A DNA stretch of 64,000 nucleotides from a virus. The DNA lies in IMG/VR virus record IMGVR_UViG_3300023174_000078, positions 57,277 through 121,276 of that record. One strand, 5' to 3'. The notes beneath the pieces were generated by a model. It saw only the letters and a list, made by a program, of their open reading frames with translations. It had not been told where the DNA came from and searched no databases. Positions 544-40,369 of this stretch are shown here, piece by piece. A program made the translations under genes and the position numbers. The first letter of the stretch is position 1. Each line of letters begins with the position of its first letter.

Positions 544-972
544 ATGGCAAATCAAAATACACCGCCTCCGGCAATGGAATCCATTGATCAATTTGTTAAT
601 TGGGCTGTAGAGACAGCGCAAGTAAAAGGTCCCAAGATTGTGGACTGGCTTTATGCCGAGGTACCAGAAGTTGTTGCGCAATTTCTAGCATGGAGCTTTG
701 CGGAAAGTTTCATATCTTTCATTACAAGTGCATTCTTTATTTTCATTTATCCTATTTTGTATTTTTACATAGTTAAAAAAATCTATGTGCGATGTGAAGT
801 AGGTAAGATGCGGGATCAGTCAAACTTCTGGGGCGGCTGTGGCTTCCTCGGTATCAGTACCTTTGGTATTTCACAAATAGTAAGCTGGAATTCTATTAAT
901 TTGACTTGGTTACAGGTTTGGCTTGCGCCGAAGGTGTTTCTATTGGAAACGTTTGCGAACGTAGTCAAATAA
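544..972 (+). CDS. Phage membrane protein, paralog of 165..539
   Basis: EVPEVVAQFLAW and WLAPKVFLLE motifs match the preceding ORF. Confidence 0.7.
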   Translation: MANQNTPPPAMESIDQFVNWAVETAQVKGPKIVDWLYAEVPEVVAQFLAWSFAESFISFITSAFFIFIYPILYFYIVKKIYVRCEVGKMRDQSNFWGGCGFLGISTFGISQIVSWNSINLTWLQVWLAPKVFLLETFANVVK

Positions 973-3319: not shown

Positions 3320-3946
3320 ATGTCAAACTACATACTATCCCATTGTAACTTTATCCACATTCCTAAATGTGGAGGTTCAGCATTAAATAATACTTTCCAT
3401 AGGCTAGGTTTAGTTACCGATCCAGATAAACAGATGTTAAAGGAGCCGCATTACGGACATCTATTCCCATGTCAGATGCCTGAGAGCGAGAATCCGTACT
3501 TTGCATTTGTTAGGCATCCTGCTTCGTGGTGGTTGTCTTATTACCACTTCAACATGAACACAGAACATTCGCGGTTTTCAGCTGCGGAACTCTCCACGAC
3601 TTCATTTGATGAATGGGTGCGTGACTACGGTCCTTTTTGGTTGGGATTTTATTCTAAAATAGTGCAGCGCTATTTGGGCCGCGATCCCAATTTTCCGGCG
3701 AGTTCTAAAATAGAGTTAATCGGACGCACTGAGTATTTATTCAGTGATTTACGCCGCATCTTTAATGTTATAGGACAACCATACAATTCAAATGTACTGC
3801 GTGATTTAATTTCTGGTAAACTTAAACTAAATGATAAACAGGCAAACAGGCAGGACTATGATCATACAGACATGTCCCAAGCATCCCGGGAAATAATCTT
3901 TGAGTGTGAACAACCCGTTTACAGGATGTTCAGCTATAAAATGTAA
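3320..3946 (+). CDS. Sulfotransferase family 2 protein
   Basis: FIHIPKCGGS (5'-PSB loop) and FVRHP..W..SYY (3'-PB) motifs. Confidence 0.85.
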   Translation: MSNYILSHCNFIHIPKCGGSALNNTFHRLGLVTDPDKQMLKEPHYGHLFPCQMPESENPYFAFVRHPASWWLSYYHFNMNTEHSRFSAAELSTTSFDEWVRDYGPFWLGFYSKIVQRYLGRDPNFPASSKIELIGRTEYLFSDLRRIFNVIGQPYNSNVLRDLISGKLKLNDKQANRQDYDHTDMSQASREIIFECEQPVYRMFSYKM

Positions 3947-3948
3947 TT

Positions 3949-4677
3949 ATGGAAGCATATGATCCGTTATTAATGGGGAATTGGCATCATGATATTGTCA
4001 TTAATGCTGCTGTTAGAACGCGCGATTTATCGCCAGCATACAATGACAGATCTACAACCAGTAAAGAAGGCTTGGCTAAAGAAATAAAGGACATATACGG
4101 AGAAGCATTAAAAGATAAGAATGTATTGGATATTGCCTGTAATGCGGGCGGTCATTTGTATGCGTTAAACAGATTTGGTATTAATTCCGGGTTTGGCTTT
4201 GATGCGCGGTCCTTATGGATACAGCAAGCGCATTGGTTAAAAAGGAATATAGATATTCCGTGTGATAACCTGACATTCGTGGAAGGTAGCTTTGATGTAC
4301 TGCAAGACTTTGAAGACAGACATTTTCATTTGTCTTTGTTTAACGGGATATTCTATCACTTAGCCGATCCTATAACGCAGCTAGCTAAAGTAGCGGAAAA
4401 GACATCTGAGTTGCTTGTTATTAATACTGCTTATGCGCCTCAGCACTCTGCAGGTCCTCCTGCGTTAATATTCAAAATGGAGGATGCGTCTATTGAAACA
4501 GGTTTAAGTGGTCTGGATGGATTATCTTGGCTTCCTAGTGGTGAATATGTTCTTTACCGTATTCTTAAACATATGGGCTTTCCATATGCGCAGCTCATGT
4601 TCAAAAGTCCTAAGACCAATCGCCTAGCTGTTATTGCGGCACGCGAGGAAGGTTTACTAACTATTGCTGATGTATGA
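3949..4677 (+). CDS. Class I SAM-dependent methyltransferase
   Basis: VLDIACNAG motif I; GIFYHL.DP. Confidence 0.8.
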   Translation: MEAYDPLLMGNWHHDIVINAAVRTRDLSPAYNDRSTTSKEGLAKEIKDIYGEALKDKNVLDIACNAGGHLYALNRFGINSGFGFDARSLWIQQAHWLKRNIDIPCDNLTFVEGSFDVLQDFEDRHFHLSLFNGIFYHLADPITQLAKVAEKTSELLVINTAYAPQHSAGPPALIFKMEDASIETGLSGLDGLSWLPSGEYVLYRILKHMGFPYAQLMFKSPKTNRLAVIAAREEGLLTIADV

Positions 4678-5180
4678 CCCCGCCAGTGCTATGGTTGTAT
4701 GGTTTATCTGGGAGCGGTAAAACGACTGTTTCTCGCTATGCGCAGTATATCATTAACTCGTGGCACGCACCCGTGATTGTATTAGATGCAGATGTATTGA
4801 GAAAAGATTACTGGCCTGAGATAGGATTAACCAAGAGTGCCCGGCTAGAGAATACACGGCGTATCGCTAAATTAGCGAAGACTTATAAAGATCTGAATAT
4901 TGCTGTATTGGTAGCTGCGTGTGCGCCGTTCCAGGAACAAAGAGAGGATGTACTTCGTTTATTACCTGACACTAAGTTTGTTTACATGGACACACCATTA
5001 GACATATGCCGGGAGCGTAAACCTTACACATATAAAGATCCGGCGAGATCAGTTACTTCGGTAGAGCACACACCACCCCCTTGGGCAACTATAGACGGTA
5101 AACAAGATATCGACTCGATTCTTACCGCGACTTCAGTCATCTTAGAGCGATGGCTTCCCTTTCAAATTTCAAGTACCTAG
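4674..5180 (+). CDS. cysC: Adenylyl-sulfate (APS) kinase
   Basis: GLSGSGKTT P-loop, LDAD.LR, R.EN.RR, DTPLDICRER. Confidence 0.8.
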   Translation: MTPPVLWLYGLSGSGKTTVSRYAQYIINSWHAPVIVLDADVLRKDYWPEIGLTKSARLENTRRIAKLAKTYKDLNIAVLVAACAPFQEQREDVLRLLPDTKFVYMDTPLDICRERKPYTYKDPARSVTSVEHTPPPWATIDGKQDIDSILTATSVILERWLPFQISST

Positions 5181-5202
5181 AGGTACGAACAAACAACAAA
5201 TA

Positions 5203-5445
5203 ATGAACTCACTGGTTAACTCTGTACCAGCTTTTAATGGTTGCTTTACGCATCAGATAAAAAGATTTGTATCCTACGGCGTGTTTACGCCTGTAATTCT
5301 AGCTTCATCCGCTGCTGTAACTGGCGATGTTTTAGGAGAGCTGTATAGCAAACTGTTTCAGCTCAGCCCTTTTTTCTCTGAATCACAATTGCAACTGAGA
5401 CATGTTATTAAAACCAAACTGTATGACGACACTGAATACGGGTGA
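5203..5445 (+). CDS. Small protein, probable diverged tetrapeptide-repeat family member
   Basis: Weak 4-residue periodicity (FVSY GVFT PVIL); first gene of the mini-gene cluster. Confidence 0.45.
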   Translation: MNSLVNSVPAFNGCFTHQIKRFVSYGVFTPVILASSAAVTGDVLGELYSKLFQLSPFFSESQLQLRHVIKTKLYDDTEYG

Positions 5446-5665
5446 ACGTCGCGAATTTGCTGCGTATCACCTACTGTACAAGCGGTCTGTATTTAATACA
5501 CAAGACGACGTGATTGACCTGTTTGATATTTTATCAAACTTCACGGATTGCGTGCATGGTGATGTATGGGATGTGATTTTAGTTAATCTACGAACGCCAA
5601 TATATCAAGCGGCAGGTAGCCATATAGCAAATTATGCGTCCGCAATCCTGAATGAGACAATATGA
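5402..5665 (+). CDS. Small protein, diverged tetrapeptide-repeat family (start probably at MTTLN)
   Basis: SVFN...CVHG DVWD VILV; ends LNETI like the array units. Confidence 0.6.
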   Translation: MLLKPNCMTTLNTGERREFAAYHLLYKRSVFNTQDDVIDLFDILSNFTDCVHGDVWDVILVNLRTPIYQAAGSHIANYASAILNETI

Positions 5666-5874
5666 GAAGAAAAAAAGATTACTTAGGTGATTATGTCGCT
5701 GATAGTGTAAACGATATATGTTGGAGTTGTGTGATACACATTATCACGGATATCATTTTTATGGCGACATCTCGTCCTGTTTACAAGGAAATTTATGGAT
5801 TTATAGATACACATGTTTCTGATTCTGTAGGCAATATAGTTCATATAAAAATAAATAATGAATGCGATTTATAA
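5662..5874 (+). CDS. Small protein, diverged tetrapeptide-repeat family
   Basis: YVAD SVND ICWS CVIH...HVSD SVGN IVHI KINNE. Confidence 0.65.
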   Translation: MRRKKDYLGDYVADSVNDICWSCVIHIITDIIFMATSRPVYKEIYGFIDTHVSDSVGNIVHIKINNECDL

Positions 5875-5904
5875 ATCTGTTAACGCTACGTATAGCCGAA
5901 AAAC

Positions 5905-6108
5905 ATGAAAACACTTTCTGATACTGTCTGGTCTCAAACTTGGTATTGTATTCACATTTCTATATGGACCTCGATAGGCCGCGCGACTAATGCTGATACG
6001 GCGGTTTCTACGCACGAATTTGTTTCGGACGCAATTTTTGAACCTGTAGCTAAAGCTACTGGCACGCGTTACGTCGATTCAACAATATATGAAATTGTTA
6101 AATCCTAA
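5905..6108 (+). CDS. Small protein, diverged tetrapeptide-repeat family
   Basis: MKTLSD TVWS QTWY CIHI SIWT SIGR...FVSD AIFE PVAK. Confidence 0.7.
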   Translation: MKTLSDTVWSQTWYCIHISIWTSIGRATNADTAVSTHEFVSDAIFEPVAKATGTRYVDSTIYEIVKS

Positions 6109-6130
6109 AAAACAAATGAGTACACACTAA

Positions 6131-6364
6131 ATGATGAATGATAAAACTCTTTATAACTCTATAACGACGCTAGTGTCTGTTTTTGCGCTCGATGGTTTAG
6201 AAGATCATGTTTTTAGCGTTACTCGCGGCTCCTGCGCAGCTAGGTCTGTGTGGATAACTGTTATGCATCAAGTCTTTGACATTACGCACAGGGCTACAGC
6301 CGATCCTAATTATGGTATTACCTCACGTCTTGCCAAAGTATTAAATAAAAAAATAAATGAGTAA
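6131..6364 (+). CDS. Small protein, diverged tetrapeptide-repeat family
   Basis: LYN SITT...SVWI TVMH QVFD; ends NKKINE with an aataaatgagtaa junction. Confidence 0.65.
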   Translation: MMNDKTLYNSITTLVSVFALDGLEDHVFSVTRGSCAARSVWITVMHQVFDITHRATADPNYGITSRLAKVLNKKINE

Positions 6365-6563
6365 TATTTACTACTCTATTTGGACATCTATTTGCGATAA
6401 TGTCTGTGGTGGCGTGGAGCGCAATGGGCTTGACACTTTATGGGATACAGCGCGCTATTCCGTAGAGGATACTGTTTGGTTTGCTATCAGCGCCAATATC
6501 TTCGGGATTATGCCCGACGCTGTAGAAAAAACTATTTGTAACCATCTTTATGCTAAAACTTGA
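6357..6563 (+). CDS. Small protein, diverged tetrapeptide-repeat family
   Basis: SIWT SICD NVCG GVER...TARY SVED TVWF AISA. Confidence 0.7.
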   Translation: MSNIYYSIWTSICDNVCGGVERNGLDTLWDTARYSVEDTVWFAISANIFGIMPDAVEKTICNHLYAKT

Positions 6564-6978
6564 AAAATCCGTTTCACACTTCGCGCGTATTATGGTTCAG
6601 CCCAATATAATTGACCCCGTTAAACATAATGCGTGGCAGGCTATTAGTGAGCAAGATTGGGAAGACGTATGGCTAATTCCTGCCGAATCGATATATACCG
6701 CCGCACGTAATAACGTGAGTGAGCTGGTCAGGAGTTTTTTGTTACACACACACACAAACCTTATTAAAATGAGTACCGATAATGAATTAAGACGGGCTGT
6801 TAACGAGATTAGCGACGCGCTAGTTTGGAAAAATTTAAGGAGCGCAATATGGTCTCATATGGAAGCTGATAGATGGTGGAGTACCCGTTTTGCGCTGAGT
6901 GACAGCATGACGGCTAAAAATGTATGTACCGCTAACTTCTTCGTTAATTCTTACATGAATCAACAAAAATATGGATAA
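6550..6978 (+). CDS. Double-length tetrapeptide-repeat family protein (two units fused; second ATG at 6769)
   Basis: SVSH..PVKH NAWQ AISE..DVWL, then MSTDNELRR AVNE..LVWK..AIWS. Confidence 0.6.
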   Translation: MLKLEKSVSHFARIMVQPNIIDPVKHNAWQAISEQDWEDVWLIPAESIYTAARNNVSELVRSFLLHTHTNLIKMSTDNELRRAVNEISDALVWKNLRSAIWSHMEADRWWSTRFALSDSMTAKNVCTANFFVNSYMNQQKYG

Positions 6979-7183
6979 TGTTTTATACAGAACTATTTTT
7001 CACAATGTGTGGCGTCCTGTACACCGCTGTGTGTTGTACCGTATACAAGATAGCACAGCAAACGCTTTAATAGGCGATGTGTTTGAATCTGGATGGGTTG
7101 CTATCAGAGATGCTGCTTACATACCTGTGGAGGATATGCTTCATCCGTACGTTTCTTTAAAATTTAATTCAATATGCGTGTAG
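6971..7183 (+). CDS. Small protein, diverged tetrapeptide-repeat family
   Basis: TIFH NVWR PVHR CVLY RIQD...AIRD AAYI PVED. Confidence 0.65.
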   Translation: MDNVLYRTIFHNVWRPVHRCVLYRIQDSTANALIGDVFESGWVAIRDAAYIPVEDMLHPYVSLKFNSICV

Positions 7184-7296
7184 ACAATTCACCACACCCG
7201 GCAGTCATTCGCTGTATTGACGATAAACATAACGCTTCAAATTAGACACCGCCATCGCGGTCGTTTCCCTGCGGTGAAATCCAAATTCTGCACAAC

Positions 7297-7500
7297 ATGA
7301 CAATTCACGATTCTAGCGATACCCAGGTATACTACGCGATCAATAAGTACATCTGGTTCGATATCCGGGCTGCTATAAAGGATTTTATTTGTTACGACGC
7401 GTATCGCTACGTTGAGAACGAAATTTATGATAAAGCAGACAGTGTTACATACTATTCTGTATGCGAATATGTGGAGCTGAGCCTCAAAATTTATAAATGA
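7297..7500 (+). CDS. Small protein, diverged tetrapeptide-repeat family
   Basis: QVYY AINK YIWF DIRA AIKD FICY...SVCE YVEL. Confidence 0.65.
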   Translation: MTIHDSSDTQVYYAINKYIWFDIRAAIKDFICYDAYRYVENEIYDKADSVTYYSVCEYVELSLKIYK

Positions 7501-7706
7501 ATAACCCGACACTTTTTGTTTCAGTCTATAACCCTCCCGGATTAATTCCCCTAGTTGGGCAGTTGCACTTAAGGTGTGCGATGAACTATAGAGACGAAGT
7601 ATGGACGGCTATGTCGAATAACGCCGCCCATATTAGCAAGCGTTTAGGCCATGCGTCTTATCATACTGATCGCAAGATAGCTGAGGATTTACACCAGTAC
7701 ACATAG
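7497..7706 (+). CDS. Small protein, possible diverged family member
   Basis: LFV SVYN...EVWT AMSN; similar size and overlapping start. Confidence 0.5.
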   Translation: MNNPTLFVSVYNPPGLIPLVGQLHLRCAMNYRDEVWTAMSNNAAHISKRLGHASYHTDRKIAEDLHQYT

Positions 7707-7736
7707 CTTATGAATTTATGATACAATACTGAAACT

Positions 7737-8087
7737 ATGAGCACAAATAAAGAAATCAAAGTCACACCAAGAGTCTGGAAAGCTATGCGCTACGCTGGAG
7801 ATGGCTATGACACATACGGTAAACAAAGAGATGGTAAAAATTATTGCGATCTCGAGACCGCAGTGACTCTAGAGACTGAATTACAGGCAGCTACAAAGGA
7901 ATTAAAACTTCTGCAAAAGCAGAACGATAAACTACTAAAAGCGCTGCGGGCCTTTACGCGATTCGGCAGCAGTCCCGGAGCAGGTGGCGGCGGAACTTTA
8001 GATTTATACACGCAAGGACAACGTGTAACCGAAAAGAATGTTCGTGACATAGCAAGGAAAGCACTAAAAGCATATGGCCCTAAATGA
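7737..8087 (+). CDS. Hypothetical coiled-coil protein
   Basis: 116-aa ORF with a heptad-like segment. Confidence 0.6.
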   Translation: MSTNKEIKVTPRVWKAMRYAGDGYDTYGKQRDGKNYCDLETAVTLETELQAATKELKLLQKQNDKLLKALRAFTRFGSSPGAGGGGTLDLYTQGQRVTEKNVRDIARKALKAYGPK

Positions 8088-8331
8088 AGAATTCATAAAG
8101 GTAGAAACAGCATATCACACACCTCCTGGAGGTCAGCAGGTTGGTCCAGTTTCCGCAGGGGTTAAAGTGACACATGAGTTCGGTGGTATATCTGTGACAT
8201 GCGATTTAGGTAGGTCACAGAAACAGAATAAAGATATGGCTTTAGGAGCTATTGAATACTTATTAGTAGAAGCAGGATACACAGACGCCGTGTTATTTAA
8301 AAAAGATGAACATAATTCAAAAAGCAGCTGA
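8074..8331 (+). CDS. Stand-alone peptide chain release factor (GGQ) domain protein
   Basis: PGGQQV..VSAGVKVTH..GISVTC..GRSQKQNKDMAL matches the class I RF catalytic domain consensus. Confidence 0.8.
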   Translation: MALNEEFIKVETAYHTPPGGQQVGPVSAGVKVTHEFGGISVTCDLGRSQKQNKDMALGAIEYLLVEAGYTDAVLFKKDEHNSKSS

Positions 8332-8776
8332 CTACGCGTTATTGGCGCATAATGGTCAGAAACGTAAAAATGGTAAGCCGTACTTCACACATGTTGAAGC
8401 TGTAGCGAACCTTGTGAACGATAACTGGTCCAGATTGATTCCGCCCACAGCGCAAGATAACTGGAACGATTATAAAGACCATGTGGTGGCTGCGGCATAT
8501 CTACATGATGTAATCGAAGATTGCGGTGTGACTAAAGATATGCTTATTGCATGCAGCTTCTCTGTGATGACTGTCGAAATTGTCGAAGCATTATCCAAGA
8601 AGCCCGGCGAGAATTACTTTGATTTCATTATGCGCATTCACGATAGTGGTGCGTTCCGTCCAGGTATAGTTGCAGTTAAACTTTGCGATCTAGAACACAA
8701 TATGAGTGACTTGGATAACGGTTCACTCAAGGATAAATACAGGCTAGCGCATTATATACTTAATTATTTTAACTGA
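8306..8776 (+). CDS. HD-domain (p)ppGpp hydrolase-like protein (SpoT/Mesh1 type)
   Basis: AH.GQ.RK.G.PY..H, AAYLHDVIED, VKLCD..HN. Confidence 0.85.
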   Translation: MNIIQKAADYALLAHNGQKRKNGKPYFTHVEAVANLVNDNWSRLIPPTAQDNWNDYKDHVVAAAYLHDVIEDCGVTKDMLIACSFSVMTVEIVEALSKKPGENYFDFIMRIHDSGAFRPGIVAVKLCDLEHNMSDLDNGSLKDKYRLAHYILNYFN

Positions 8777-14028: not shown

Positions 14029-14241
14029 ATGAAACGATCACTTAATAATTCTGTCTGGCATTCTGTCCGTAATTCTGTCAATGAGTCTGTCCGTAATTCT
14101 GTCAGAAATTCTGCCCTGTATTCTGTCTGGGATTCTGTCTATAATTCTGTCTGGGATTCTGTCCGTAATTCTGTCAGTGGTTCTGTCTATAATTCTGTGT
14201 GGCATTCTGTCAGTAATAAAATAAATGAAACGATCACTTAA
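14029..14241 (+). CDS. SVxx-repeat mini-protein 1 (14 repeats)
   Basis: MKRSLNN-(SVxx)14-KINETIT. Confidence 0.75.
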   Translation: MKRSLNNSVWHSVRNSVNESVRNSVRNSALYSVWDSVYNSVWDSVRNSVSGSVYNSVWHSVSNKINETIT

Positions 14242-14389
14242 TAATTCTGTCTGGCATTCTGTCCGTGATTCTGTCAGTGATTCTGTCTATAATTCTGTCT
14301 GGGATTCTGTCCGTAATTCTGTCAGTGGTTCTGTCTATAATTCTGTGTGGCATTCTGTCAGTAATAAAATAAATGAAACGATCACTTAA
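14225..14389 (+). CDS. SVxx-repeat mini-protein 2 (10 repeats, 54 aa; absent from the ORF track)
   Basis: Manual translation MKRSLNNSVWHSVRDSVSDSVYNSVWDSVRNSVSGSVYNSVWHSVSNKINETIT. Confidence 0.75.
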   Translation: MKRSLNNSVWHSVRDSVSDSVYNSVWDSVRNSVSGSVYNSVWHSVSNKINETIT

Positions 14390-14561
14390 TAATTCTGTCT
14401 GGCATTCTGTCCGTGATTCTGTCAGTGATTCTGTCTGGGATTCTGTCTATAATTCTGTCTGGAATTCTGTCAGTGGTTCTGTCAGGGATTCTGTCTATAA
14501 TCCTGTCAATGAGTCTGTCAGAGATTCTGTCAGTAATAAAATAAATGAAACAAGCACTTAA
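14373..14561 (+). CDS. SVxx-repeat mini-protein 3 (12 repeats)
   Basis: Same architecture, 17-nt overlap with neighbours. Confidence 0.75.
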   Translation: MKRSLNNSVWHSVRDSVSDSVWDSVYNSVWNSVSGSVRDSVYNPVNESVRDSVSNKINETST

Positions 14562-14733
14562 TAATTCTGTCCATAGTTTTGTCAGTGATTCTGTCTTTAG
14601 TTCTGTCCGTAATTCTGTCAGAGATTTTGTCAGTAATTCTGTCCGGTATTCTGTCAGTGATTCTGTCTGGGATTCTGTCTTTAATTCTGTCAATAATTCT
14701 GTCAGTAATAAAATAAATGAAACGATCACTTAG
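14545..14733 (+). CDS. SVxx-repeat mini-protein 4 (12 repeats)
   Basis: Same architecture. Confidence 0.75.
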   Translation: MKQALNNSVHSFVSDSVFSSVRNSVRDFVSNSVRYSVSDSVWDSVFNSVNNSVSNKINETIT

Positions 14734-14905
14734 TAGTTCTGTCCGTAGTTTTGTCAGTAATTCTGTCAGTAATTCTGTCAGTGGTTCTGTCTGGGATTCT
14801 GTCTGGCATTCTGTCCGGTATTCTGTCAGTGATTCTGTCTGGGATTCTGTCTTTAATTCTGTCAATGAGTCTGTCCGTAATAAAATAAATGAAACAATCA
14901 CTTAA
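14717..14905 (+). CDS. SVxx-repeat mini-protein 5 (12 repeats)
   Basis: Same architecture. Confidence 0.75.
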   Translation: MKRSLSSSVRSFVSNSVSNSVSGSVWDSVWHSVRYSVSDSVWDSVFNSVNESVRNKINETIT

Positions 14906-15089
14906 TAATTCTGTCAGTGGTTCTGTCTGGGATTCTGTCAGTAATTCTGTCAGTAATTCTGTCAATAATTCTGTCAGTGATTCTGTCAGTGGTTCTGTCT
15001 GGGATTCTGTCGGTGATTCTATCTGGGATTCTGTCTATGATTCTGTCCGTAATTCTGTCAGTAATAAAATAAATGAAACAATTACTTAA
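14889..15089 (+). CDS. SVxx-repeat mini-protein 6 (13 repeats)
   Basis: Same architecture. Confidence 0.75.
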   Translation: MKQSLNNSVSGSVWDSVSNSVSNSVNNSVSDSVSGSVWDSVGDSIWDSVYDSVRNSVSNKINETIT

Positions 15090-15309
15090 TAATTCTGTCG
15101 ATGATTCTGTCTGGGATTCTGTCAGTAATTCTGTCGACGATTCTGTCTGGGATTCTGTCTGGGATTCTGTCTTTAGTTCTGTCTGGAATTCTGTCTGGGA
15201 TTCTGTCCGTAATTCTGTCAGTGGTTCTGTCTATAATTCTGTGTGGCATTCTGTCCGTGATTCTGTCAGTAATTCTGTCCGTAATAAAATAAATGAAACA
15301 ATCACTTAA
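15073..15309 (+). CDS. SVxx-repeat mini-protein 7 (16 repeats)
   Basis: Same architecture. Confidence 0.75.
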   Translation: MKQLLNNSVDDSVWDSVSNSVDDSVWDSVWDSVFSSVWNSVWDSVRNSVSGSVYNSVWHSVRDSVSNSVRNKINETIT

Positions 15310-15541
15310 TAATTCTGTCAGCAATTCTGTCTGGAATTCTGTCCGTAATTCTGTCAGTGGTTCTGTCTATAATTCTATCAGTGATTCTGTCCGGTATCCT
15401 GTCAGTAATTCTATCAGTGATTCTGTCCGGTATCCTGTCAGTAATTCTGTCAATGATTCTGTCTGGTATTCTGTCTGGGATTCTGTCCGTAGTTTTGTCA
15501 GTAGTTTTGTCAGTAATAAAATAAATGAAACAATCATTTAG
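15293..15541 (+). CDS. SVxx-repeat mini-protein 8 (17 repeats)
   Basis: Same architecture; internal 36-bp duplication (SISD SVRY PVSN x2). Confidence 0.75.
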   Translation: MKQSLNNSVSNSVWNSVRNSVSGSVYNSISDSVRYPVSNSISDSVRYPVSNSVNDSVWYSVWDSVRSFVSSFVSNKINETII

Positions 15542-15773
15542 TGATTCTGTCTGGGATTCTGTCAATAATTCCGTCCGTGATTCTGTCCGTAATTCTGTCC
15601 GTGGTTCTGCATATAATTATGTCGGTGATTCTGTCTGGCATTCTGTCTGGCATTCTGTCCGTGATTCTGTCCGTAGTTTTGTCTGGGATTCTGTCGGTGG
15701 TTTTGTCTGGGATCCTGTCAGTGATTCTGTCAATGAGTCTGTCCGTAATAAAATAAATGAAACAATCACTTAA
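15525..15773 (+). CDS. SVxx-repeat mini-protein 9 (17 repeats)
   Basis: Same architecture. Confidence 0.75.
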   Translation: MKQSFSDSVWDSVNNSVRDSVRNSVRGSAYNYVGDSVWHSVWHSVRDSVRSFVWDSVGGFVWDPVSDSVNESVRNKINETIT

Positions 15774-16017
15774 TAATTCTGTCAGTGGTTCTGTCTGGGA
15801 TTCTGTCAGTAATTCTGTCAGTAATTCTGTCAATAATTCTGTCAGTGATTCTGTCAGTGGTTCTGTCTGGGATTCTGTCTGTAATTCTGTCTGGGATTCT
15901 GTCTGGAATTTTGTCTATAATTCTGTCTGGAATTCTGTCAGTGGTTCTGTCAGGGATTCTGTCTGGCATTCTGTCTGGGCTTCTGTCAGTAATAAAATAA
16001 ATGAAACAATCACTTAA
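15757..16017 (+). CDS. SVxx-repeat mini-protein 10 (18 repeats)
   Basis: Same architecture. Confidence 0.75.
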   Translation: MKQSLNNSVSGSVWDSVSNSVSNSVNNSVSDSVSGSVWDSVCNSVWDSVWNFVYNSVWNSVSGSVRDSVWHSVWASVSNKINETIT

Positions 16018-16150
16018 TAATTCTGTCCATAGTTTTGTCAGAGATTCTGTCAGAGATTCTGTCTGGGATTCTGTCTGTCATTCTGTCTATAATTCTGTCC
16101 GTAATAAAATAAATGAAACTACACGATTACAAATTAGAACCTCAAAATGA
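16001..16150 (+). CDS. SVxx-repeat mini-protein 11 (7 repeats, 49 aa; absent from the ORF track)
   Basis: Manual translation MKQSLNNSVHSFVRDSVRDSVWDSVCHSVYNSVRNKINETTRLQIRTSK. Confidence 0.7.
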   Translation: MKQSLNNSVHSFVRDSVRDSVWDSVCHSVYNSVRNKINETTRLQIRTSK

Positions 16151-16541: not shown

Positions 16542-17581
16542 ATTTCCACGATAAGCTTCCACCGGAAGTTTACGCGATTAAAGAGCACCCTATCACTGAG
16601 GAGTTGTTTTTAGATAAGATTGATTGTTTTAATATACCGCACAAGAGATACGGTAATAATGACAGGTACGCCCAACGTATCTTGAACAGCTTCAAGCTAC
16701 GCAATCAAGCGACCGGTGTTCTCTTGTGTGGGGAGAAGGGGTCCGGTAAGTCGCTACTTGCCAAAACTCTAGCCAATATCGCGCAAGCAGAGGGGTTGCC
16801 AGTTATCGTGGTTAACACACCACGCACTGGTGACGCTTTCTTCCAGCTTATTCAGCGGATTGAGCAGCCCGCTATTATTCTCTTTGATGAGTTCGAGAAG
16901 GTGTACGACTCAGACAAACAGAAAGAAGTTCTGACGCTGCTTGACGGCATCTATCCGTCCAATAAATTGTATGTCTTCACGGTCAACGATAAGTGGAAGC
17001 TGGATGTGAACATGCGCAACCGCCCCGGACGTATTTTCTATTCCATTGACTACAAAGGCATCGAAGAAAAGTTTATTCGTGAGTACTGCGAAGACAATTT
17101 GAATGATAAGTCGCAGGTCGACCATATCGTTCGTATCAACACACTGTTCAGTGCGTTTAATTTTGATATGCTGCAGGCTTTGGTTGAGGAAATGAATCGT
17201 TATAATGAAGATCCATTTGAGGCGATTCAGTTGCTGAATATCAAACCCGAGTACGAAGATGCCACAACCTTCACTACGTTTATTTCCGTCGATGGTACGC
17301 CTGATTCGCATATCACATGTGACCGGGACTTTAATGGTAAGCCTTTGGGCGACCGTGTGAAAATCTATTACCATAAGTATAGGCGTCTGGATATTTCCAA
17401 GGAACACTGTGATAACGAAGCCGACTGGCTGTCCGCTGAGTTTGTTCCAACGGATTTGGTTTCCGTCAGTAAGGACGGTAAAACTTTCTTGTTTAAGAAT
17501 AGCAAAGGCGAATCTGTTACGCTGCAAGCTAAAAAGAGTGATACCGCATTCGATTACCGCACTTTCGCTTACGCGAGCTAG
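16481..17581 (+). CDS. AAA+ ATPase
   Basis: Walker A GEKGSGKS, Walker B ILFDEFEK, LLDG, RPGR arginine finger. Confidence 0.9.
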   Translation: MSTIFSIQGNTIFLRDPEAMNFHDKLPPEVYAIKEHPITEELFLDKIDCFNIPHKRYGNNDRYAQRILNSFKLRNQATGVLLCGEKGSGKSLLAKTLANIAQAEGLPVIVVNTPRTGDAFFQLIQRIEQPAIILFDEFEKVYDSDKQKEVLTLLDGIYPSNKLYVFTVNDKWKLDVNMRNRPGRIFYSIDYKGIEEKFIREYCEDNLNDKSQVDHIVRINTLFSAFNFDMLQALVEEMNRYNEDPFEAIQLLNIKPEYEDATTFTTFISVDGTPDSHITCDRDFNGKPLGDRVKIYYHKYRRLDISKEHCDNEADWLSAEFVPTDLVSVSKDGKTFLFKNSKGESVTLQAKKSDTAFDYRTFAYAS

Positions 17582-17628
17582 TGTGCATTAAAAACAAATC
17601 AAACAAATTAAACAAAAGTCATACAATC

Positions 17629-18666
17629 ATGGACGCGAAACAGCAAAAAGAAAAGATCTCCGAACTCACTCCTGAGCAAAAGGCTAAGATGCCAGAATAT
17701 GTTAAGAAGTGGATTGCTATCGGCAACGACACTTCCCGGTTGAATTATGATCGTACTGTCGACATCATTCATGCGGTTCAGAAGCACATCCTGAAGAAAG
17801 AACCTACTCCGGTTTTGATCTTTGATAACCCCATGGAGGCCTGGGTAGCGTGTAACTATGCCGCACACGGTCACAAGGTTAATGAACTCAAGAACTGTGT
17901 GGAGGAGTTCTTCAGTGGAAAGAAACCCAAGTGGAAACTTGGTCAGTATGTTTCACCCTATCTCAATGGGTCATTCGCAGCACCAACGTTCGCCTTCTAC
18001 GACTTTTTCAAGTTCGAGTTGGGCGTTTCGTTTGACACTACCGGTACGCCAGTCGCAGCTGCGCAAGACAACAGCGCGCTTAGCGTGGATGAACTGTATG
18101 AGATCTGGAAGAGCACCACAGAGCTTGGACTGATCTATCCAATTCACGACGTCCAAGGTGCAGCACAGGATATGTGTATCGTGTCTCAAAAACCATCGCG
18201 GGTAAAAGTTAATGAAGCCGGTGTCGTACACTGCGATGGCGCTGTTGCCATTGAGTACGAGGGGCATGGCGATATCAAGATTTATGCGCTCAATGGTGTG
18301 ACTGTTCCTGATTGGTTGGCTTTGACGCCAGCCCAGAACATCCCCGTCGAGCGGATACACGAAATTAAAAATGCAGACATTAAAGCCGAGTTTGTTCGCA
18401 AGATCGGTGTTGAGCGTTTGCTTGACATGGGAAGCAAAGTGGACTCTTATGAGGCTCATTCTGATGAGTGGTGGCACAAGTCGCAATACGAGCTTTGGGA
18501 TATGCACAACCTGTTTCCTAATGTTGAGTACGCCCCACACCTCAAGATGCTGAATCAGACGACCAAAATCTGGCACGTTGAGGCTGTATCTCCTAGTTGC
18601 AGAACAATCGAAGATGCGTTGAAAGACCGGTATGGTCGCAATGTTGACATCATTGAAATCGCCTAA
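17629..18666 (+). CDS. DUF6745-like protein (ATG at 17629 preferred over GTG at 17581)
   Basis: LTPEQ...Y..KW..IG N-terminus; FYDFF; G.VHCDGAVAIEY...YALNGVTVP; I.NAD..AE..RKIG. Confidence 0.7.
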   Translation: MDAKQQKEKISELTPEQKAKMPEYVKKWIAIGNDTSRLNYDRTVDIIHAVQKHILKKEPTPVLIFDNPMEAWVACNYAAHGHKVNELKNCVEEFFSGKKPKWKLGQYVSPYLNGSFAAPTFAFYDFFKFELGVSFDTTGTPVAAAQDNSALSVDELYEIWKSTTELGLIYPIHDVQGAAQDMCIVSQKPSRVKVNEAGVVHCDGAVAIEYEGHGDIKIYALNGVTVPDWLALTPAQNIPVERIHEIKNADIKAEFVRKIGVERLLDMGSKVDSYEAHSDEWWHKSQYELWDMHNLFPNVEYAPHLKMLNQTTKIWHVEAVSPSCRTIEDALKDRYGRNVDIIEIA

Positions 18667-39083: not shown

Positions 39084-39749
39084 ATGCAAATACAATTACT
39101 TCAAGACAAACACGTGGAATATATTGATAATATTCTACTAAAAGACGGCGAATTGCAAGTTTTACCTGCAGTTGAGCTTTTACAAATCAATAATTACGAT
39201 CTTCGTCTTTGGTGTCATCACAAAGGCATATATGGTATTCCTTCTCAGGAACTTATAGACATTATTAATTCGCACTTGGTTGCGTATAAAAGTATAGAAG
39301 TCGGCGCTGGTTGCGGGGTATTTGGTCGTGCGCTGAATATACCTAGCACTGATTCCATGATTCAGAGCAATCCGGCAGTCGCTGCCTATTACGCGGCGCT
39401 GCAACAGCCTGTTGTTTCGTACGGTAAAGATGTCATAGAATTGGAAGCTTCAGCTGCGATTAACAAGTTTAAAGCTGATGTAGTATTTGGATCCTGGGTA
39501 ACACAGTATCACTCGTCGTTAGATACTGAAACGCTGGTTGGTGGCGGCTCTGTGCATGGCCTCCGGGAATCGGAGTTTATGCCGCGTATCAAGAAATATA
39601 TTGTTTATGGTAACGATCTCATTCACGGACAAAAAGAAATATTTATGAACCCTAAATACAAAGTCGAACGCATTTACAATGTACAAGACTTCTTTTCCCG
39701 GGCATCCAAACCGGAATTGAATTGTCTGTACATTGTCACACACGCTTAA
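39084..39749 (+). CDS. Methyltransferase-like protein
   Basis: IEVGAGCG motif I. Confidence 0.55.
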   Translation: MQIQLLQDKHVEYIDNILLKDGELQVLPAVELLQINNYDLRLWCHHKGIYGIPSQELIDIINSHLVAYKSIEVGAGCGVFGRALNIPSTDSMIQSNPAVAAYYAALQQPVVSYGKDVIELEASAAINKFKADVVFGSWVTQYHSSLDTETLVGGGSVHGLRESEFMPRIKKYIVYGNDLIHGQKEIFMNPKYKVERIYNVQDFFSRASKPELNCLYIVTHA

Positions 39750-40369
39750 ATAACAATATGGAAGAAGATTTTGAATCACTATTGATGCGCAGTTATCCTG
39801 CTTTGTTTGCTAAAAATGGAAAAGGCGAGTCCTATTGTATATGCGGGGCGGACGTACCTAAAGGTTGGCGCTCCATAGTTTTCGAACTGTGTGGCGCTAT
39901 TGATTATTATATCAAGAGCACGTATGTATTGAAATTTCAAGCGACCAGTAAGAAATACTACTTCTGGCACTTCCTACAATCAGCTACGCAAACGTTGCAT
40001 CACTTTATAATTAAGACGCTTTGTAAAAAGCTAAACAAACATGAATTCAATAAACCCTGGTTTGAATTGAATCGCAAATTAATAGGGCAAGTGACGCGGT
40101 ATGTCAAATATGACAGAATCCATCCGCCAGAAATTAATATTGAACAAATCAAACAAAAATTTGGCGGCCTAAGATTTTATTATTCTGGAGGTGATACGAC
40201 TGTAGCTGGTATGATTTATTTCGCTGAGCACCTTTGTAAGCAAACTTGCGAAGTATCTGGCGAAAAAGGAGAATTACATCGCAGAGCAGCGTGGTATAAA
40301 ACTTTGTCGCATACCGTAGCGAATACCATGCCTCATGTCGGTTACACACCAGTTAAACCAAATGAATAA
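39722..40369 (+). CDS. Conserved phage hypothetical protein (start probably at MEEDF)
   Basis: GW..I...L, QIKQKFGGLRFY, TCEVSG. Confidence 0.7.
   Translation: MSVHCHTRLNNNMEEDFESLLMRSYPALFAKNGKGESYCICGADVPKGWRSIVFELCGAIDYYIKSTYVLKFQATSKKYYFWHFLQSATQTLHHFIIKTLCKKLNKHEFNKPWFELNRKLIGQVTRYVKYDRIHPPEINIEQIKQKFGGLRFYYSGGDTTVAGMIYFAEHLCKQTCEVSGEKGELHRRAAWYKTLSHTVANTMPHVGYTPVKPNE

What the first reader, a model, noticed from the sequence alone, without database searches (positions are those of the whole stretch)
5203..7706. A second, older cluster of about 11 diverged mini-genes of the same 4-residue-repeat family
Seen: about 65-85 aa ORFs, mostly overlapping, that keep a hydrophobic residue every fourth position and scattered Trp (TVWS QTWY CIHI SIWT SIGR; SIWT SICD NVCG GVER; QVYY AINK YIWF DIRA). 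Several end like the young array (LNETI, KINNE, NKKINE), and one has an aataaatgagtaa junction at about 6352-6364. The DNA-level 12-bp repeat has eroded but the frames are intact. Inference: this is the aged outcome of an earlier array expansion retained by selection, which is the best in-window evidence that the 14-16 kb units are real genes and that the array acts as a gene nursery.
Basis: partly seen in the sequence, partly recalled or inferred. Interest (0 to 1): 0.8.

Follow-up and report, generated by a model that had tools for sequence, protein, structure and literature searches.

The report
Diverged cluster of four-residue-repeat phage mini-genes
An uncultured lake phage carries nine small back-to-back genes that have lost all DNA repetition but still keep a strict four-amino-acid rhythm, which suggests that the repeat mini-genes found in many phages can settle into lasting genes, though what they do is unknown.

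Summary
Window 5203-7706 (+) carries 10 tiled ORFs, or 11 units because one ORF is a fusion of two. Eight ORFs (nine units, 5402-7500) keep a hydrophobic residue every fourth position. Their spectrum peaks at period 4.0, not 3.6. Trp falls right after the hydrophobic position in 17 of 19 cases. Three ORFs keep the young array's C-terminal cap, and the ATG-in-cap junction recurs. The two outer ORFs (5203-5445, 7497-7706) are not shown to be members.

An HMM of the young array ranks these eight ORFs directly after the array among 708 ORFs of the 121-kb phage record. A profile built only from the old units finds their orthologs in other samples, plus 44 long proteins, 39 of them DUF6745 with an internal tetrapeptide tract. 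No DNA repeat remains and Val codons match genome usage, so the rhythm is kept at protein level.

A related phage (G001) has a live 12-bp-repeat array at the syntenic place. A distant phage (L014) shows a range from repetitive to aperiodic capped mini-genes.

Function is unknown. Docking on this phage's tract-less DUF6745 protein got only weak model support. dN/dS could not be computed. This scan had already noted detached DUF6745 repeat mini-gene arrays on other DNA (71 findings, at least 40 genomes). The diverged cluster is the new part.

The parts
5402..5665 (+). Old unit 1, 87 aa, C-terminal cap AILNETI, ATGA overlap with the next gene
   Evidence: Young-array HMM 10.4 bits, above all 200 full and all 200 phase-keeping shuffles. 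Period-4 p 0.0485. Ortholog P0055 is 77% identical.
5662..5874 (+). Old unit 2, 70 aa, 14 tetrads in one phase, cap KINNE
   Evidence: Period-4 power 11.5, p < 0.0005. HMM E 1.7e-6. Ortholog P0004 is 99% identical.
5905..6108 (+). Old unit 3, 67 aa, N-terminal cap MKTLSDTVW, like young unit MKQSFSDSVW
   Evidence: Period-4 p 0.001. HMM E 0.0036. Ortholog P0006 is 94% identical and runs on for 8 more residues.
6107..6122 (+). Relic junction AAAAAACAAATGAGTA in a spacer; other strains carry extra DNA here
   Evidence: Repeat family D5. In one search the X4 contig has about 690 extra letters here, and X3 and X5 contigs run on unlike the window after 6112.
6131..6364 (+). Old unit 4, 77 aa, cap NKKINE with the next start codon inside it
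   Evidence: HMM 10.4 bits, above all 200 + 200 shuffles. Period-4 p 0.0185. Ortholog P0008 is 95% identical. A 15-nt junction matches all 11 young junctions at 93%.
6357..6563 (+). Old unit 5, 68 aa, 17 tetrads in one unbroken phase
   Evidence: Period-4 power 12.8, p < 0.0005. HMM E 1.2e-5. Orthologs P0001, P0002 and P0003 are 97%, 85% and 86% identical.
6550..6768 (+). Old unit 6, first half of the 142-aa fusion ORF 6550-6978
   Evidence: Period-4 power 9.0, p < 0.0002. HMM 16.7 bits, above all 200 full shuffles. The separate 72-aa ortholog P0053 is 96% identical.
6744..6756 (+). (AC)6 run where 4 extra bases fuse units 6 and 7 in this strain
   Evidence: Sequence. X3 and X4 contigs lack 4 bases at 6744. 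Without them the first frame stops at about 6770, overlapping the ATG at 6769.
6769..6978 (+). Old unit 7, second half of the fusion ORF; the weakest member
   Evidence: Period-4 power 3.3, p 0.035, and Trp in phase 1 at 3 of 4. HMM only 3.4 bits, reached by 29 of 200 shuffles. The separate 69-aa ortholog P0020 is 90% identical.
6971..7183 (+). Old unit 8, 70 aa
   Evidence: Period-4 power 10.6, p < 0.0005. HMM E 1.2e-4. Ortholog P0040 is 93% identical.
7297..7500 (+). Old unit 9, 67 aa, N-terminal cap MTIHDS, like MTLKDS of the relative's arrays
   Evidence: Period-4 p 0.0005. HMM E 0.016. Ortholog P0005 is 97% identical with a longer N-terminus.
5203..5445 (+). Flanking 80-aa ORF, not shown to be a member (only MNSLVNSV recalls the N-terminal cap)
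   Evidence: Period-4 p 0.29. HMM 2.4 bits, reached by 8 of 200 shuffles. Codon usage is gene-like, 0.143.
7497..7706 (+). Flanking 69-aa ORF, not a member; it starts at a junction of the family type, ATAAATGAATAA
   Evidence: Period-4 p 0.96. HMM 0.6 bits. Junction family D12. 7422-7639 is identical in the X4 contig.
14029..16150 (+). Young array: 11 overlapping mini-genes with a 12-bp DNA repeat (the comparison set)
17581..18666 (+). DUF6745-like protein without the internal tetrapeptide tract; candidate partner
   Evidence: Pfam PF20530 E 7.4e-4, 19.3 bits, below the cut-off of 27. phrog_31813 E 2.3e-5. 41% identical over 158 residues to the C-domain of tract-bearing P0011. The alignment shows the tract missing.

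Best explanation
Window 5402-7500 is a second, diverged locus of the phage's family of stand-alone tetrad-repeat mini-proteins. It holds nine units in eight translationally chained genes.

Each unit keeps the grammar [V/I/L]-[W/Y/R/x]-[D/N/x]-[S/T/A] over most of its length. Some units keep the family's end caps and the junction in which the next start codon lies inside the cap codons. The units have lost every trace of the 12-bp DNA repeat, so the rhythm is held by selection on the protein and not by replication slippage.

The same grammar forms the internal tract of DUF6745 proteins, which a model folds as a long two-helix arm. This phage's own DUF6745-like protein lacks that tract.

Inferred and not shown: the mini-proteins are helical hairpins that either supply that arm in trans or act alone on host or rival-phage targets. 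The old cluster would be a set of fixed variants and the 14-16 kb array the slippage-prone, fast-changing set. The locus most likely began as a repeat array like the one a related phage still has at the same place.

The confidence given is for what the cluster is (diverged, selectively kept paralogs of the tetrad mini-gene family). For the trans-docking mechanism alone I would give about 0.3.
For: Family link.
- The young-array HMM run against all 708 ORFs of at least 40 aa in the 121-kb record puts 8 old ORFs directly after the 11 array units, at E 1.7e-6 to 0.024.
- The genome search with one young unit hits 5 further places in the record, all in the cluster.
- 8 of 11 segments beat all 200 full shuffles.
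- hhalign of old against young gives probability 93.5%, E 2.2e-7 over 25 columns.
- Trp lies in the phase after the hydrophobic residue in 17 of 19 old cases and 39 of 39 young cases (binomial p 5.8e-9).
- The cap is present in 3 of 10 old ORFs against 1 of 687 other non-array ORFs.
- The junction motif is shared with all 11 young junctions.

DUF6745 link.
- The old-only profile A2, run against 1.84 billion proteins, gives 53 hits at E <= 0.001. Nine are small orthologs and 44 are long proteins.
- 39 of those 44 carry PF20530.

Coding and selection.
- In-frame codon-usage score is 0.13-0.25 for all 10 ORFs (long genes 0.21 +- 0.05). Shifted frames score -0.2 to -0.9.
- Val at the rhythmic phase is GTC in 140 of 143 young cases. 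In the old units it is GTT 14, GTG 10, GTA 10, GTC 4, which is genome usage. Meanwhile 70% of those positions stay V/I/L/M/F/C.
- 11 ortholog pairs are 77-99% identical and all intact.
- Indels inside ORFs net 0 or +3 bases. The indels that are not multiples of 3 lie in spacers or at junctions.

Origin.
- In relative G001 (DUF6745 79%, AAA ATPase 78%, kinase 65-66% identical) the collinear interval after the kinase holds a live 12-bp-repeat array of 7 listed units.
- In L014, 18 capped chained mini-genes range from 3 DNA-repetitive ones to 6 aperiodic ones.

Structure.
- The tract of P0011 is modelled as helices 64-167 and 179-276.
- Complex of the core with unit 6357: weak support. Median score 0.37 (runs 0.02, 0.51, 0.37), best of 3 controls 0.00. 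The mark was reached by 58 of 80 solved complexes and 2 of 110 mismatched pairs, but at 0.60 or under by only 7 of those 80 and by both mismatches that passed. Runs agree in at least 61% of contacts. Partner pLDDT is at least 45. My own alignments were used, so the counts hold only roughly.
Against: - Most of the HMM score survives shuffles that keep each residue in its phase (means 10-19 bits for 6 segments). Similarity is therefore mainly the tetrad grammar, which could in principle arise twice. Only 5402, 6131, 5662 and 6971 carry extra, non-periodic signal.
- Unit 6769-6978 is weak (HMM 3.4 bits, period-4 p 0.035).
- Of the strain differences that read laying displayed in the cluster, 8 of 9 codon changes alter the residue. 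In the neighbouring gene 7737-8087, 14 of 26 single-base differences alter the residue. This is a small, non-random sample: 40 of 378 differences were shown.
- Ortholog substitutions spare the hydrophobic phase only as a trend: 11 of 189 against 53 of 574, Fisher p 0.17.
- The AF2 monomer of unit 6357 is unconfident (pLDDT 45.1), and tract confidence in P0011 is 34-59.
- The complex pass is of the weak kind, which is more often wrong than right unless the guess was likely beforehand.
- Old units are no closer to G001's syntenic array than to its other array or to the window's young array, so descent from that particular array is not shown.
- G001 has no orthologs of the old units.
- No function is known for DUF6745. 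No paper was found and no solved fold matched.
Confidence: 0.68

Rival explanations
1. Same family, but the units work on their own. They would be a multigene set of small helical proteins, each fixed on a different host or rival-phage target (decoys or inhibitors), with no physical link to the DUF6745-like protein.
For: The cluster lies about 10 kb from the DUF6745-like gene and in a different gene neighbourhood. The units are only 12-27% identical to each other, as expected for different targets. The complex test gave only weak support (median 0.37, best control 0.00).
Against: The old-only profile retrieves DUF6745 tracts almost exclusively among long proteins (39 of 44). The phage's own DUF6745-like protein lacks exactly that tract. 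The controls of the complex test scored 0.00.
Confidence: 0.3
2. Decaying remains of a dead array. The ORFs are open only because too little time has passed, and they make no useful protein.
For: Most displayed strain differences change residues. Strains differ by insertions of about 673 and 690 letters and by a replaced 198-nt stretch. One pair of units is fused by a slip in an (AC)6 run. The relic junction at 6107-6122 encodes nothing.
Against: DNA similarity between units is gone and Val codons are at genome equilibrium. Even so, 9 units of 67-87 codons stay open and cover 93.4% of the stretch. At about 40% G+C, a 67-codon frame stays open by chance about 1 time in 80 (my calculation). Codon usage is gene-like. 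Indels inside ORFs are frame-neutral. All 9 units are intact in other assemblies. The Trp phase is kept.
Confidence: 0.08
3. Unrelated small amphipathic proteins that only resemble the array by convergence on a helical pattern.
For: Phase-keeping shuffles retain most of the HMM score. The units have no PHROG or Pfam family.
Against: The period is 4.0, not the 3.6 of an ordinary amphipathic helix. Shared features also include the Trp phase, end caps and the ATG-in-cap junction DNA. The genome, strand and chaining are the same. A live array sits at the syntenic place in G001. Only 13 of 6559 small ORFs outside this genome pass the same criteria, against 6 within 3 kb here.
Confidence: 0.04

Closest known systems
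Internal tetrapeptide tract of DUF6745 (Pfam PF20530, phrog_31813) phage proteins, for example P0011 (SV tract) and P0007 (QV tract)
   Same: Same four-residue grammar: V at one position, W, R or G next, then D or N, then S or Q. The old-only profile hits these tracts (39 of the 44 long hits carry DUF6745). The tract is modelled as a two-helix arm.
   Different: There the tract is one long, DNA-repetitive insert between two globular domains of a single protein. Here there are nine separate 67-87 aa genes with unique sequences, their own start and stop caps, no DUF6745 domain and no DNA repeat.
The window's own young array (14029-16150) and the detached DUF6745 repeat mini-gene arrays noted earlier by this scan (71 findings in at least 40 genomes; unchecked notes, none found in print)
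   Same: Stand-alone chained mini-genes of 49-86 aa with the same grammar, Trp phase, caps and junction.
   Different: Units are 12-27% identical to each other, against 60-78% identity to the first unit in the young array. Lag-12 DNA identity is at background. Codons are randomised. Hydrophobic-phase occupancy is 70% instead of 97%.
Mycobacteriophage Tweety gp54, with Che8 gp57 and PMC gp51 (phrog_3416)
   Same: A phage accessory protein built around a variable run of tetrapeptide repeats. It is not essential. Repeat-number changes tune escape from the Phrann gp29/gp30 defence (PMC2884959 and PMC9262239, passages read).
   Different: The repeat is Ala-Ala-x-x inside one 374-aa protein. gp54 has no DUF6745 hit, and the old units have no phrog_3416 hit. 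No homology is shown, so this is an analogue of build only.
Bordetella phage BMP-1 bbp36 variable region 2, as cited in PMC2884959 (passage read)
   Same: A variable-copy short repeat inside a non-essential phage gene.
   Different: It is a 24-bp unit within one gene. It was not examined here.

Membership tests
SV-tetrad mini-gene family of this phage (young array 14029-16150) | Stand-alone ORF of about 50-90 aa, chained to its neighbours on one strand | tested here: met
   8 ORFs of 67-142 aa on the + strand. Overlaps are 4-14 nt and gaps 22-113 nt between member ORFs. The 142-aa ORF is a fusion of two units.
SV-tetrad mini-gene family of this phage (young array 14029-16150) | Hydrophobic residue (V/I) every fourth position over most of the protein | tested here: met
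   6 of 10 ORFs at p <= 0.001 and 8 of 10 at p < 0.05. The spectrum peaks at 4.0. Phase occupancy is 70%, against 97% in the young array.
SV-tetrad mini-gene family of this phage (young array 14029-16150) | Trp confined to the position after the hydrophobic residue | tested here: met
   17 of 19 old, 39 of 39 young. Binomial p 5.8e-9.
SV-tetrad mini-gene family of this phage (young array 14029-16150) | C-terminal cap NKINETIT, with the next ATG inside the cap codons | tested here: inconclusive
   A cap-like end is present in 3 of 10 ORFs (LNETI, KINNE, NKKINE). The junction motif is present at 4 places. The other units end differently, one with NLIK, like G001's NLIKSHDT.
SV-tetrad mini-gene family of this phage (young array 14029-16150) | 12-bp tandem DNA repeat | tested here: not met
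   No TRF row in 5203-7706. Lag-12 identity is 0.23-0.38. This is the sense in which the cluster is 'old'.
DUF6745 (Pfam PF20530) | Match to the Pfam domain model | tested here: not met
   None of the 10 ORFs has a PF20530 hit at E <= 1. They resemble the inter-domain tract, which the Pfam matches seen here do not cover, so they are not members of the domain family.
DUF6745 (Pfam PF20530) | Similarity to the internal tetrapeptide tract of members | tested here: met
   The A2 profile gives 44 long hits, 39 of them with PF20530, and the matched stretches lie in the tract.
Tweety gp54 family (phrog_3416) | Homology to the gp54 N- and C-terminal domains, and an Ala-Ala-x-x repeat | tested here: not met
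   None of the 10 ORFs has a phrog_3416 hit. The repeat grammar differs.
Tweety gp54 family (phrog_3416) | Counter-defence activity tuned by repeat number | not testable with these tools
   Needs phage genetics. Known only for Tweety (PMC9262239, passage).
Ordinary amphipathic helix, heptad coiled coil, or pentapeptide repeat | Hydrophobic period of 3.6, 3.5 or 5 | tested here: not met
   Mean power is 7.75 at 4.0 and 0.61 at 3.6. Power at period 5 is 0.0-3.7 per ORF.

The most novel reading that the evidence does not exclude
Slippage-born repeat arrays may be a birthplace of new phage genes. A 12-bp repeat expands into chained mini-genes. Some copies then stop slipping, randomise their DNA, keep only the structural rhythm and caps, and finally lose even the rhythm and become ordinary orphan small genes.

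Three stages would be seen here:
- The relative G001 shows the live-array stage at this locus.
- The window's old cluster shows the middle stage.
- L014 shows all stages in one chain (3 repetitive, 9 more periodic but not DNA-repetitive, 6 aperiodic, out of 18 capped units).
Probability: 0.4. Interest if true: 0.8.

Novelty: new variant of a known kind. Interest (0 to 1): 0.62.

Why it matters
Tetrapeptide-repeat tracts in phage proteins have been treated as slippery, possibly unstructured spacers. The 2007 Tweety paper links such repeats to intrinsically unstructured proteins (passage read).

Here the rhythm outlives the DNA repeat. Codons are randomised, but the V/I position and the Trp position are kept. 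This argues that the four-residue pattern is a structural requirement under selection. It also argues that the array units are real protein genes.

The cluster gives nine fixed, sequence-unique variants that can be synthesised and tested one by one. A repeat array cannot offer that.

Together with the live array at the same place in a relative and the range seen in L014, the cluster offers a concrete, testable route by which phages could mint new small genes.

DUF6745 is widespread and unstudied, and I found no paper that names it.

Tried and rejected
Searches for known relatives that gave nothing.
- Megablast of the cluster against 50,697 phage records: no match.
- tblastn of the 142-aa ORF against the same records: no match.
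- PHROGs and Pfam on the 10 ORFs: only chance-level rows.

Attempts to get DNA of close strains for dN/dS.
- Viral-contig scans with unit 6357, the kinase and the DUF6745-like protein found nothing.
- Both metagenome-contig scans found no relative.
- dN/dS was therefore not computed. I have only the 40 of 378 differences that read laying displayed.

- Alignment A4 was too diverse for the search for related loci. The smaller A6 worked.

Analyses that did not discriminate.
- Global DNA Fourier power at period 12 was uninformative, because the phase breaks at each gene. Even the young array scores only 1.02.
- Ortholog substitutions by phase were not significant (p 0.17).
- HMMs of G001's two arrays and of the window's array score the old units alike, so no closest array can be named.

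Structure and function searches.
- AF2 monomer of unit 6357: pLDDT 45.1, not usable.
- Foldseek of the P0011 model against PDB: no match at E <= 0.001.
- ESM Atlas for unit 5662: the nearest clusters are small viral hypothetical proteins at 0.89-0.91, a lead only.

Other points.
- No RNA holder was listed for the stretch.
- The sigma-70 promoter scan of 4500-8500 found 10 sites, no more than the 11.5 expected from shuffles.
- Literature: 'DUF6745' gave 0 papers. Two further searches listed nothing on stand-alone tetrapeptide mini-genes. Supplements were closed, so Tables S1 and S2 of PMC2884959 were not seen.
- The scan for old-type clusters covered only about 10 kb on each side of DUF6745 homologues, while the window's own cluster lies further than that from its core gene. 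The rarity of such clusters (1 of 82 sources with at least 3 in 3 kb) is therefore a lower bound.

Full report
ANATOMY. The window is the last 64 kb of a 121,276-base IMG/VR virus record (G000, 67% complete by CheckV). It has about 41% G+C and almost all genes lie on the + strand. No record among 50,697 phages is close. Between an APS-kinase-like gene (4674-5180, Pfam PF01583 E 2.7e-25) and a 116-aa gene (7737-8087) lie 10 + strand ORFs of 67-142 aa. They cover 93.4% of 5203-7706. Six of the nine junctions overlap by 4 to 44 nt and three are gaps of 22, 30 and 113 nt. The 142-aa ORF 6550-6978 is two units joined. At an (AC)6 run (6744-6756), contigs of two other samples have 4 bases fewer. That would end the first frame at about 6770 in an ATGA-type overlap with the Met codon at 6769. 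The two halves exist elsewhere as separate proteins of 72 and 69 aa (P0053, P0020).

OBSERVATION. Hydrophobicity power at period 4, against 2000 shuffles of each protein, gives p <= 0.001 in 6 of 10 ORFs and p < 0.05 in 8 of 10. The outer ORFs 5203-5445 (p 0.29) and 7497-7706 (p 0.96) show nothing. The two halves of the fusion give p < 0.0002 and p 0.035. Averaged over the nine units, the spectrum has a sharp peak at 4.0 (7.75; 4.6 at 3.9, 4.3 at 4.1) and only 0.61 at the 3.6 of a plain amphipathic helix. In a ranking of all 286 window ORFs of at least 50 aa by best 48-residue window, 23 ORFs of the array region come first. Then 5 old ORFs fall among the next 7. The DNA repeat is gone. Tandem Repeats Finder reports nothing between 3852 and 10782. 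Repeat search finds only short two- or three-copy families, four of which are junction motifs. Base identity at lag 12 is 0.23-0.38, against 0.64-0.80 in the array and a background median of 0.29.

SAME FAMILY AS THE 14-16 KB ARRAY. I built an HMM from the 11 young units and ran it against all 708 ORFs of at least 40 aa in the whole record. The 11 units came first, followed by eight old ORFs and nothing else: 5662 (E 1.7e-6), 6357, 6971, 6550, 5905, 7297, 6131 and 5402 (E 0.024). The next hits are alternative frames of the array itself. The genome search with a single young unit gave the same picture, with 5 extra matches, all in the cluster. Eight of 11 segments exceed all 200 full shuffles. 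Shuffles that keep every residue in its phase retain most of the score, so the similarity is chiefly the tetrad grammar. Four units (5402, 6131, 5662, 6971) exceed all or nearly all such shuffles as well, which reflects the caps. hhalign of the old alignment (A2) against the young alignment (A7) gives probability 93.5%, E 2.2e-7 over 25 columns at the C-terminal end.

Three features do not depend on hydrophobic periodicity:
- Trp lies in the position after the hydrophobic one in 17 of 19 old and 39 of 39 young cases (p 5.8e-9).
- The cap pattern occurs in 14 of 708 ORFs: 10 young, 3 old, 1 other.
- The only DNA similarity left between the two loci is the junction. A 15-nt stretch at 6346-6360 matches all 11 young junctions at 93%.

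LINK TO DUF6745. I tested that lead with the old units alone. The profile of A2, run against 1.84 billion representative proteins, gave 53 hits at E <= 0.001. Nine are small and each is the ortholog of one old unit. Forty-four are 304-3209 aa long with several matched stretches in the middle, and 39 of those 44 carry PF20530. Their middle is a long tract of xxQV or xxSV tetrads. The window's 17581-18666 protein is a weak DUF6745 match (E 7.4e-4, below Pfam's cut-off; phrog_31813 E 2.3e-5). Its C-domain is 41% identical over 158 residues to tract-bearing P0011. In the alignment it has a short linker where the others have the tract. The mini-proteins themselves have no DUF6745 domain. They resemble the tract, not the domain.

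ARE THEY GENES UNDER SELECTION? For:
- Codon-usage log-odds in frame are 0.13-0.25 for all 10 ORFs. The 67 long training genes average 0.21 +- 0.05. Shifted frames score -0.2 to -0.9. Sixty minus-strand ORFs of similar size average 0.03. The antisense ORF 7237-7512 scores 0.044.
- In the young array, Val at the rhythmic position is GTC in 140 of 143 cases, the genome's rarest Val codon. In the old units it is GTT 14, GTG 10, GTA 10, GTC 4, which is genome usage, yet 70% of these positions are still V/I/L/M/F/C. Synonymous sites have equilibrated while the residue class was kept.
- Eleven ortholog pairs covering all 9 units are intact and 77-99% identical.
- Contigs of four other studies (lake and freshwater metagenomes) hold the stretch. 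X2 is identical, X3 and X5 differ by up to about 7% per piece, and X4 by about 6-9%.
- In X4, indels inside ORFs cancel to 0 or +3 bases (5351/5353/5356, 5731/5735, 6168/6169). The indels that are not multiples of 3 lie in spacers (5186, 5191, +29 at 6127) or at junctions (+5 at 5659, -4 at 6744).

Against or open:
- Of the 12 differences displayed inside the cluster, 9 codons are affected and 8 change the residue. In the next gene, 12 of 26 single-base differences are silent. Only 40 of 378 differences were shown, so this is a hint of relaxed or diversifying change, not a measurement.
- Substitutions in orthologs spare the hydrophobic phase only as a trend (11 of 189 against 53 of 574, p 0.17).

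TURNOVER. The X4 contig has 673 letters in place of 59 at 5830-5890. It has about 690 extra letters at 6107-6112 and 173 letters in place of 198 at 7223-7422, and it is identical to the window over 7422-7639. X3 and X5 contigs also run on differently after 6112. The ortholog P0006 runs 8 residues past the window's stop at that point. The spacer there holds a dead junction motif (6107-6122). The locus therefore gains and loses unit-sized pieces between strains.

RELATIVES. A small alignment of DUF6745 homologues found 80 IMG/VR loci. The closest, G001 (101 kb), is collinear with the window. Identities are 65% for the kinase, 41% for the 8791-9135 gene, 72% for the 13414-13989 gene, 78% for the AAA ATPase and 79% for the DUF6745-like protein. 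In G001 the interval after the kinase, where the window has the old cluster, holds a live array: L090 14921-16493, minus strand, 7 listed units of the form MTLEDSV...NLIKAYDT, with a 12-bp repeat by TRF. A second array of 11 units lies where the window has its young array. G001 has no orthologs of the old units, and the old units score alike against all three array HMMs. The old cluster is thus positionally equivalent to an array, but its age relative to the split is open. Some old caps resemble G001's (NLIK, MTIHD) and others the window's own (KINE, MKTLSD).

HOW COMMON ARE DIVERGED CLUSTERS? I scanned 7070 ORFs of 45-160 aa in G000 and 81 loci. 'Old-type' ORFs (period-4 power >= 7, lag-12 identity < 0.42, hydrophobic phase >= 55%) number 20. 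Seven are in G000, six of them within 3 kb. Thirteen of 6559 are elsewhere. Only G000 has three or more in 3 kb. L014 (DUF6745 43% identical, tract-less) has a chain of 18 capped mini-genes (MNIE...YEY). Three are DNA-repetitive, 12 are period-4 at p <= 0.025 and 6 are aperiodic. The range from repeat to unique sequence is therefore not confined to this phage.

STRUCTURE AND MECHANISM. AlphaFold2 models the tract of P0011 as two long helices (64-167, 179-276) between confident N- and C-domains. Tract confidence is low (34-59). No solved structure matches. The monomer model of unit 6357 is unconfident (pLDDT 45.1) with four short helices. The complex test of the tract-less core with unit 6357 gave weak support. 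The median score was 0.37 (runs 0.02, 0.51, 0.37) and the best of 3 controls 0.00. The mark was reached by 58 of 80 solved complexes and 2 of 110 mismatches, but at 0.60 or under by only 7 of the 80 and by both mismatches. Runs agree in at least 61% of contacts, partner pLDDT is at least 45, and my own alignments were used. My reading is that the units are helical hairpins that can stand in for the missing arm or act alone. This is inference. The one studied analogue of this build is Tweety gp54, where repeat number tunes escape from a prophage defence (PMC9262239, passage). It is not a DUF6745 protein and uses an Ala-Ala-x-x repeat (PMC2884959, passages).

NOVELTY. This scan had already described detached DUF6745 repeat mini-gene arrays on other DNA (71 findings in at least 40 genomes) and on this genome's young array. 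I found nothing in print. 'DUF6745' gave 0 papers, and two further searches found nothing relevant. What this stretch adds is a diverged, non-repetitive sister cluster. It shows that the rhythm is held at protein level, it sits where a relative has a live array, and it gives sequence-unique variants for experiments.

Noticed in passing
window 8074-8331 (+): An 85-aa phage protein that is little more than a release-factor GGQ domain (Pfam RF-1 PF00472, E 7.9e-11, above cut-off; PPGGQQ in the sequence). It may be a mini peptidyl-tRNA hydrolase of the ArfB type (the name is recalled, not tested).
   Followed up: no
window 8306-8776 (+): A 156-aa HD_4 domain protein (PF13328, E 9.5e-8, above cut-off) about 600 nt after the cluster. 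From recall, HD_4 is the (p)ppGpp-hydrolase type of HD domain, and the defence that Tweety gp54 counters is said to be alarmone-synthetase-like. A possible thematic link, untested.
   Followed up: no
L014:8802-14820 (+): Another phage, with a tract-less DUF6745 at 3879-4853, has a chain of 18 coupled mini-genes with shared caps (MNIE...YEY). Three are DNA-repetitive, 12 are period-4 at p <= 0.025 and 6 are aperiodic. A 497-aa gene ending in SYHY sits inside the chain.
   Followed up: partly
L090:14921-16493 (-) and L090:5129-7376 (-): Relative G001 has two live 12-bp-repeat arrays (7 and 11 listed units, caps MTL.DSV...LIK..DT). They are alike and sit at the places of the window's old cluster and young array. 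This fits homogenisation between the two loci or a recent re-seeding.
   Followed up: partly
window 6744-6756: An (AC)6 run inside a gene. This strain and X2 have 4 bases more than X3 and X4, which fuses two mini-genes into one 142-aa ORF. It looks like a natural slip-driven gene fusion or split.
   Followed up: yes
window 6107-6122 and 7223-7422: Strain-variable points. Extra DNA of about 690 letters in X4 (X3 and X5 also diverge) lies at a dead junction motif. A 70-nt or 198-nt stretch before unit 9 is missing or replaced in X3 and X4, which lengthens the ortholog P0005 at its N-terminus.
   Followed up: partly
window 7237-7512 (-): A 91-aa antisense ORF over unit 9 has a codon-usage score of 0.044, like spurious ORFs. 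It is probably not a gene.
   Followed up: yes
window 39722-40369 (+) and 544-972 (+): Two longer ORFs reach local period-4 power of 10.5 and 9.0 in the window-wide ranking. They do not hit the array HMM and do not look like the family.
   Followed up: partly
window 3949-5180 (+): A class I methyltransferase-like gene (several Pfam methyltransferase models, E 2e-5) overlaps an APS-kinase-like gene by 4 nt just upstream of the cluster. This may be a small modification module.
   Followed up: no
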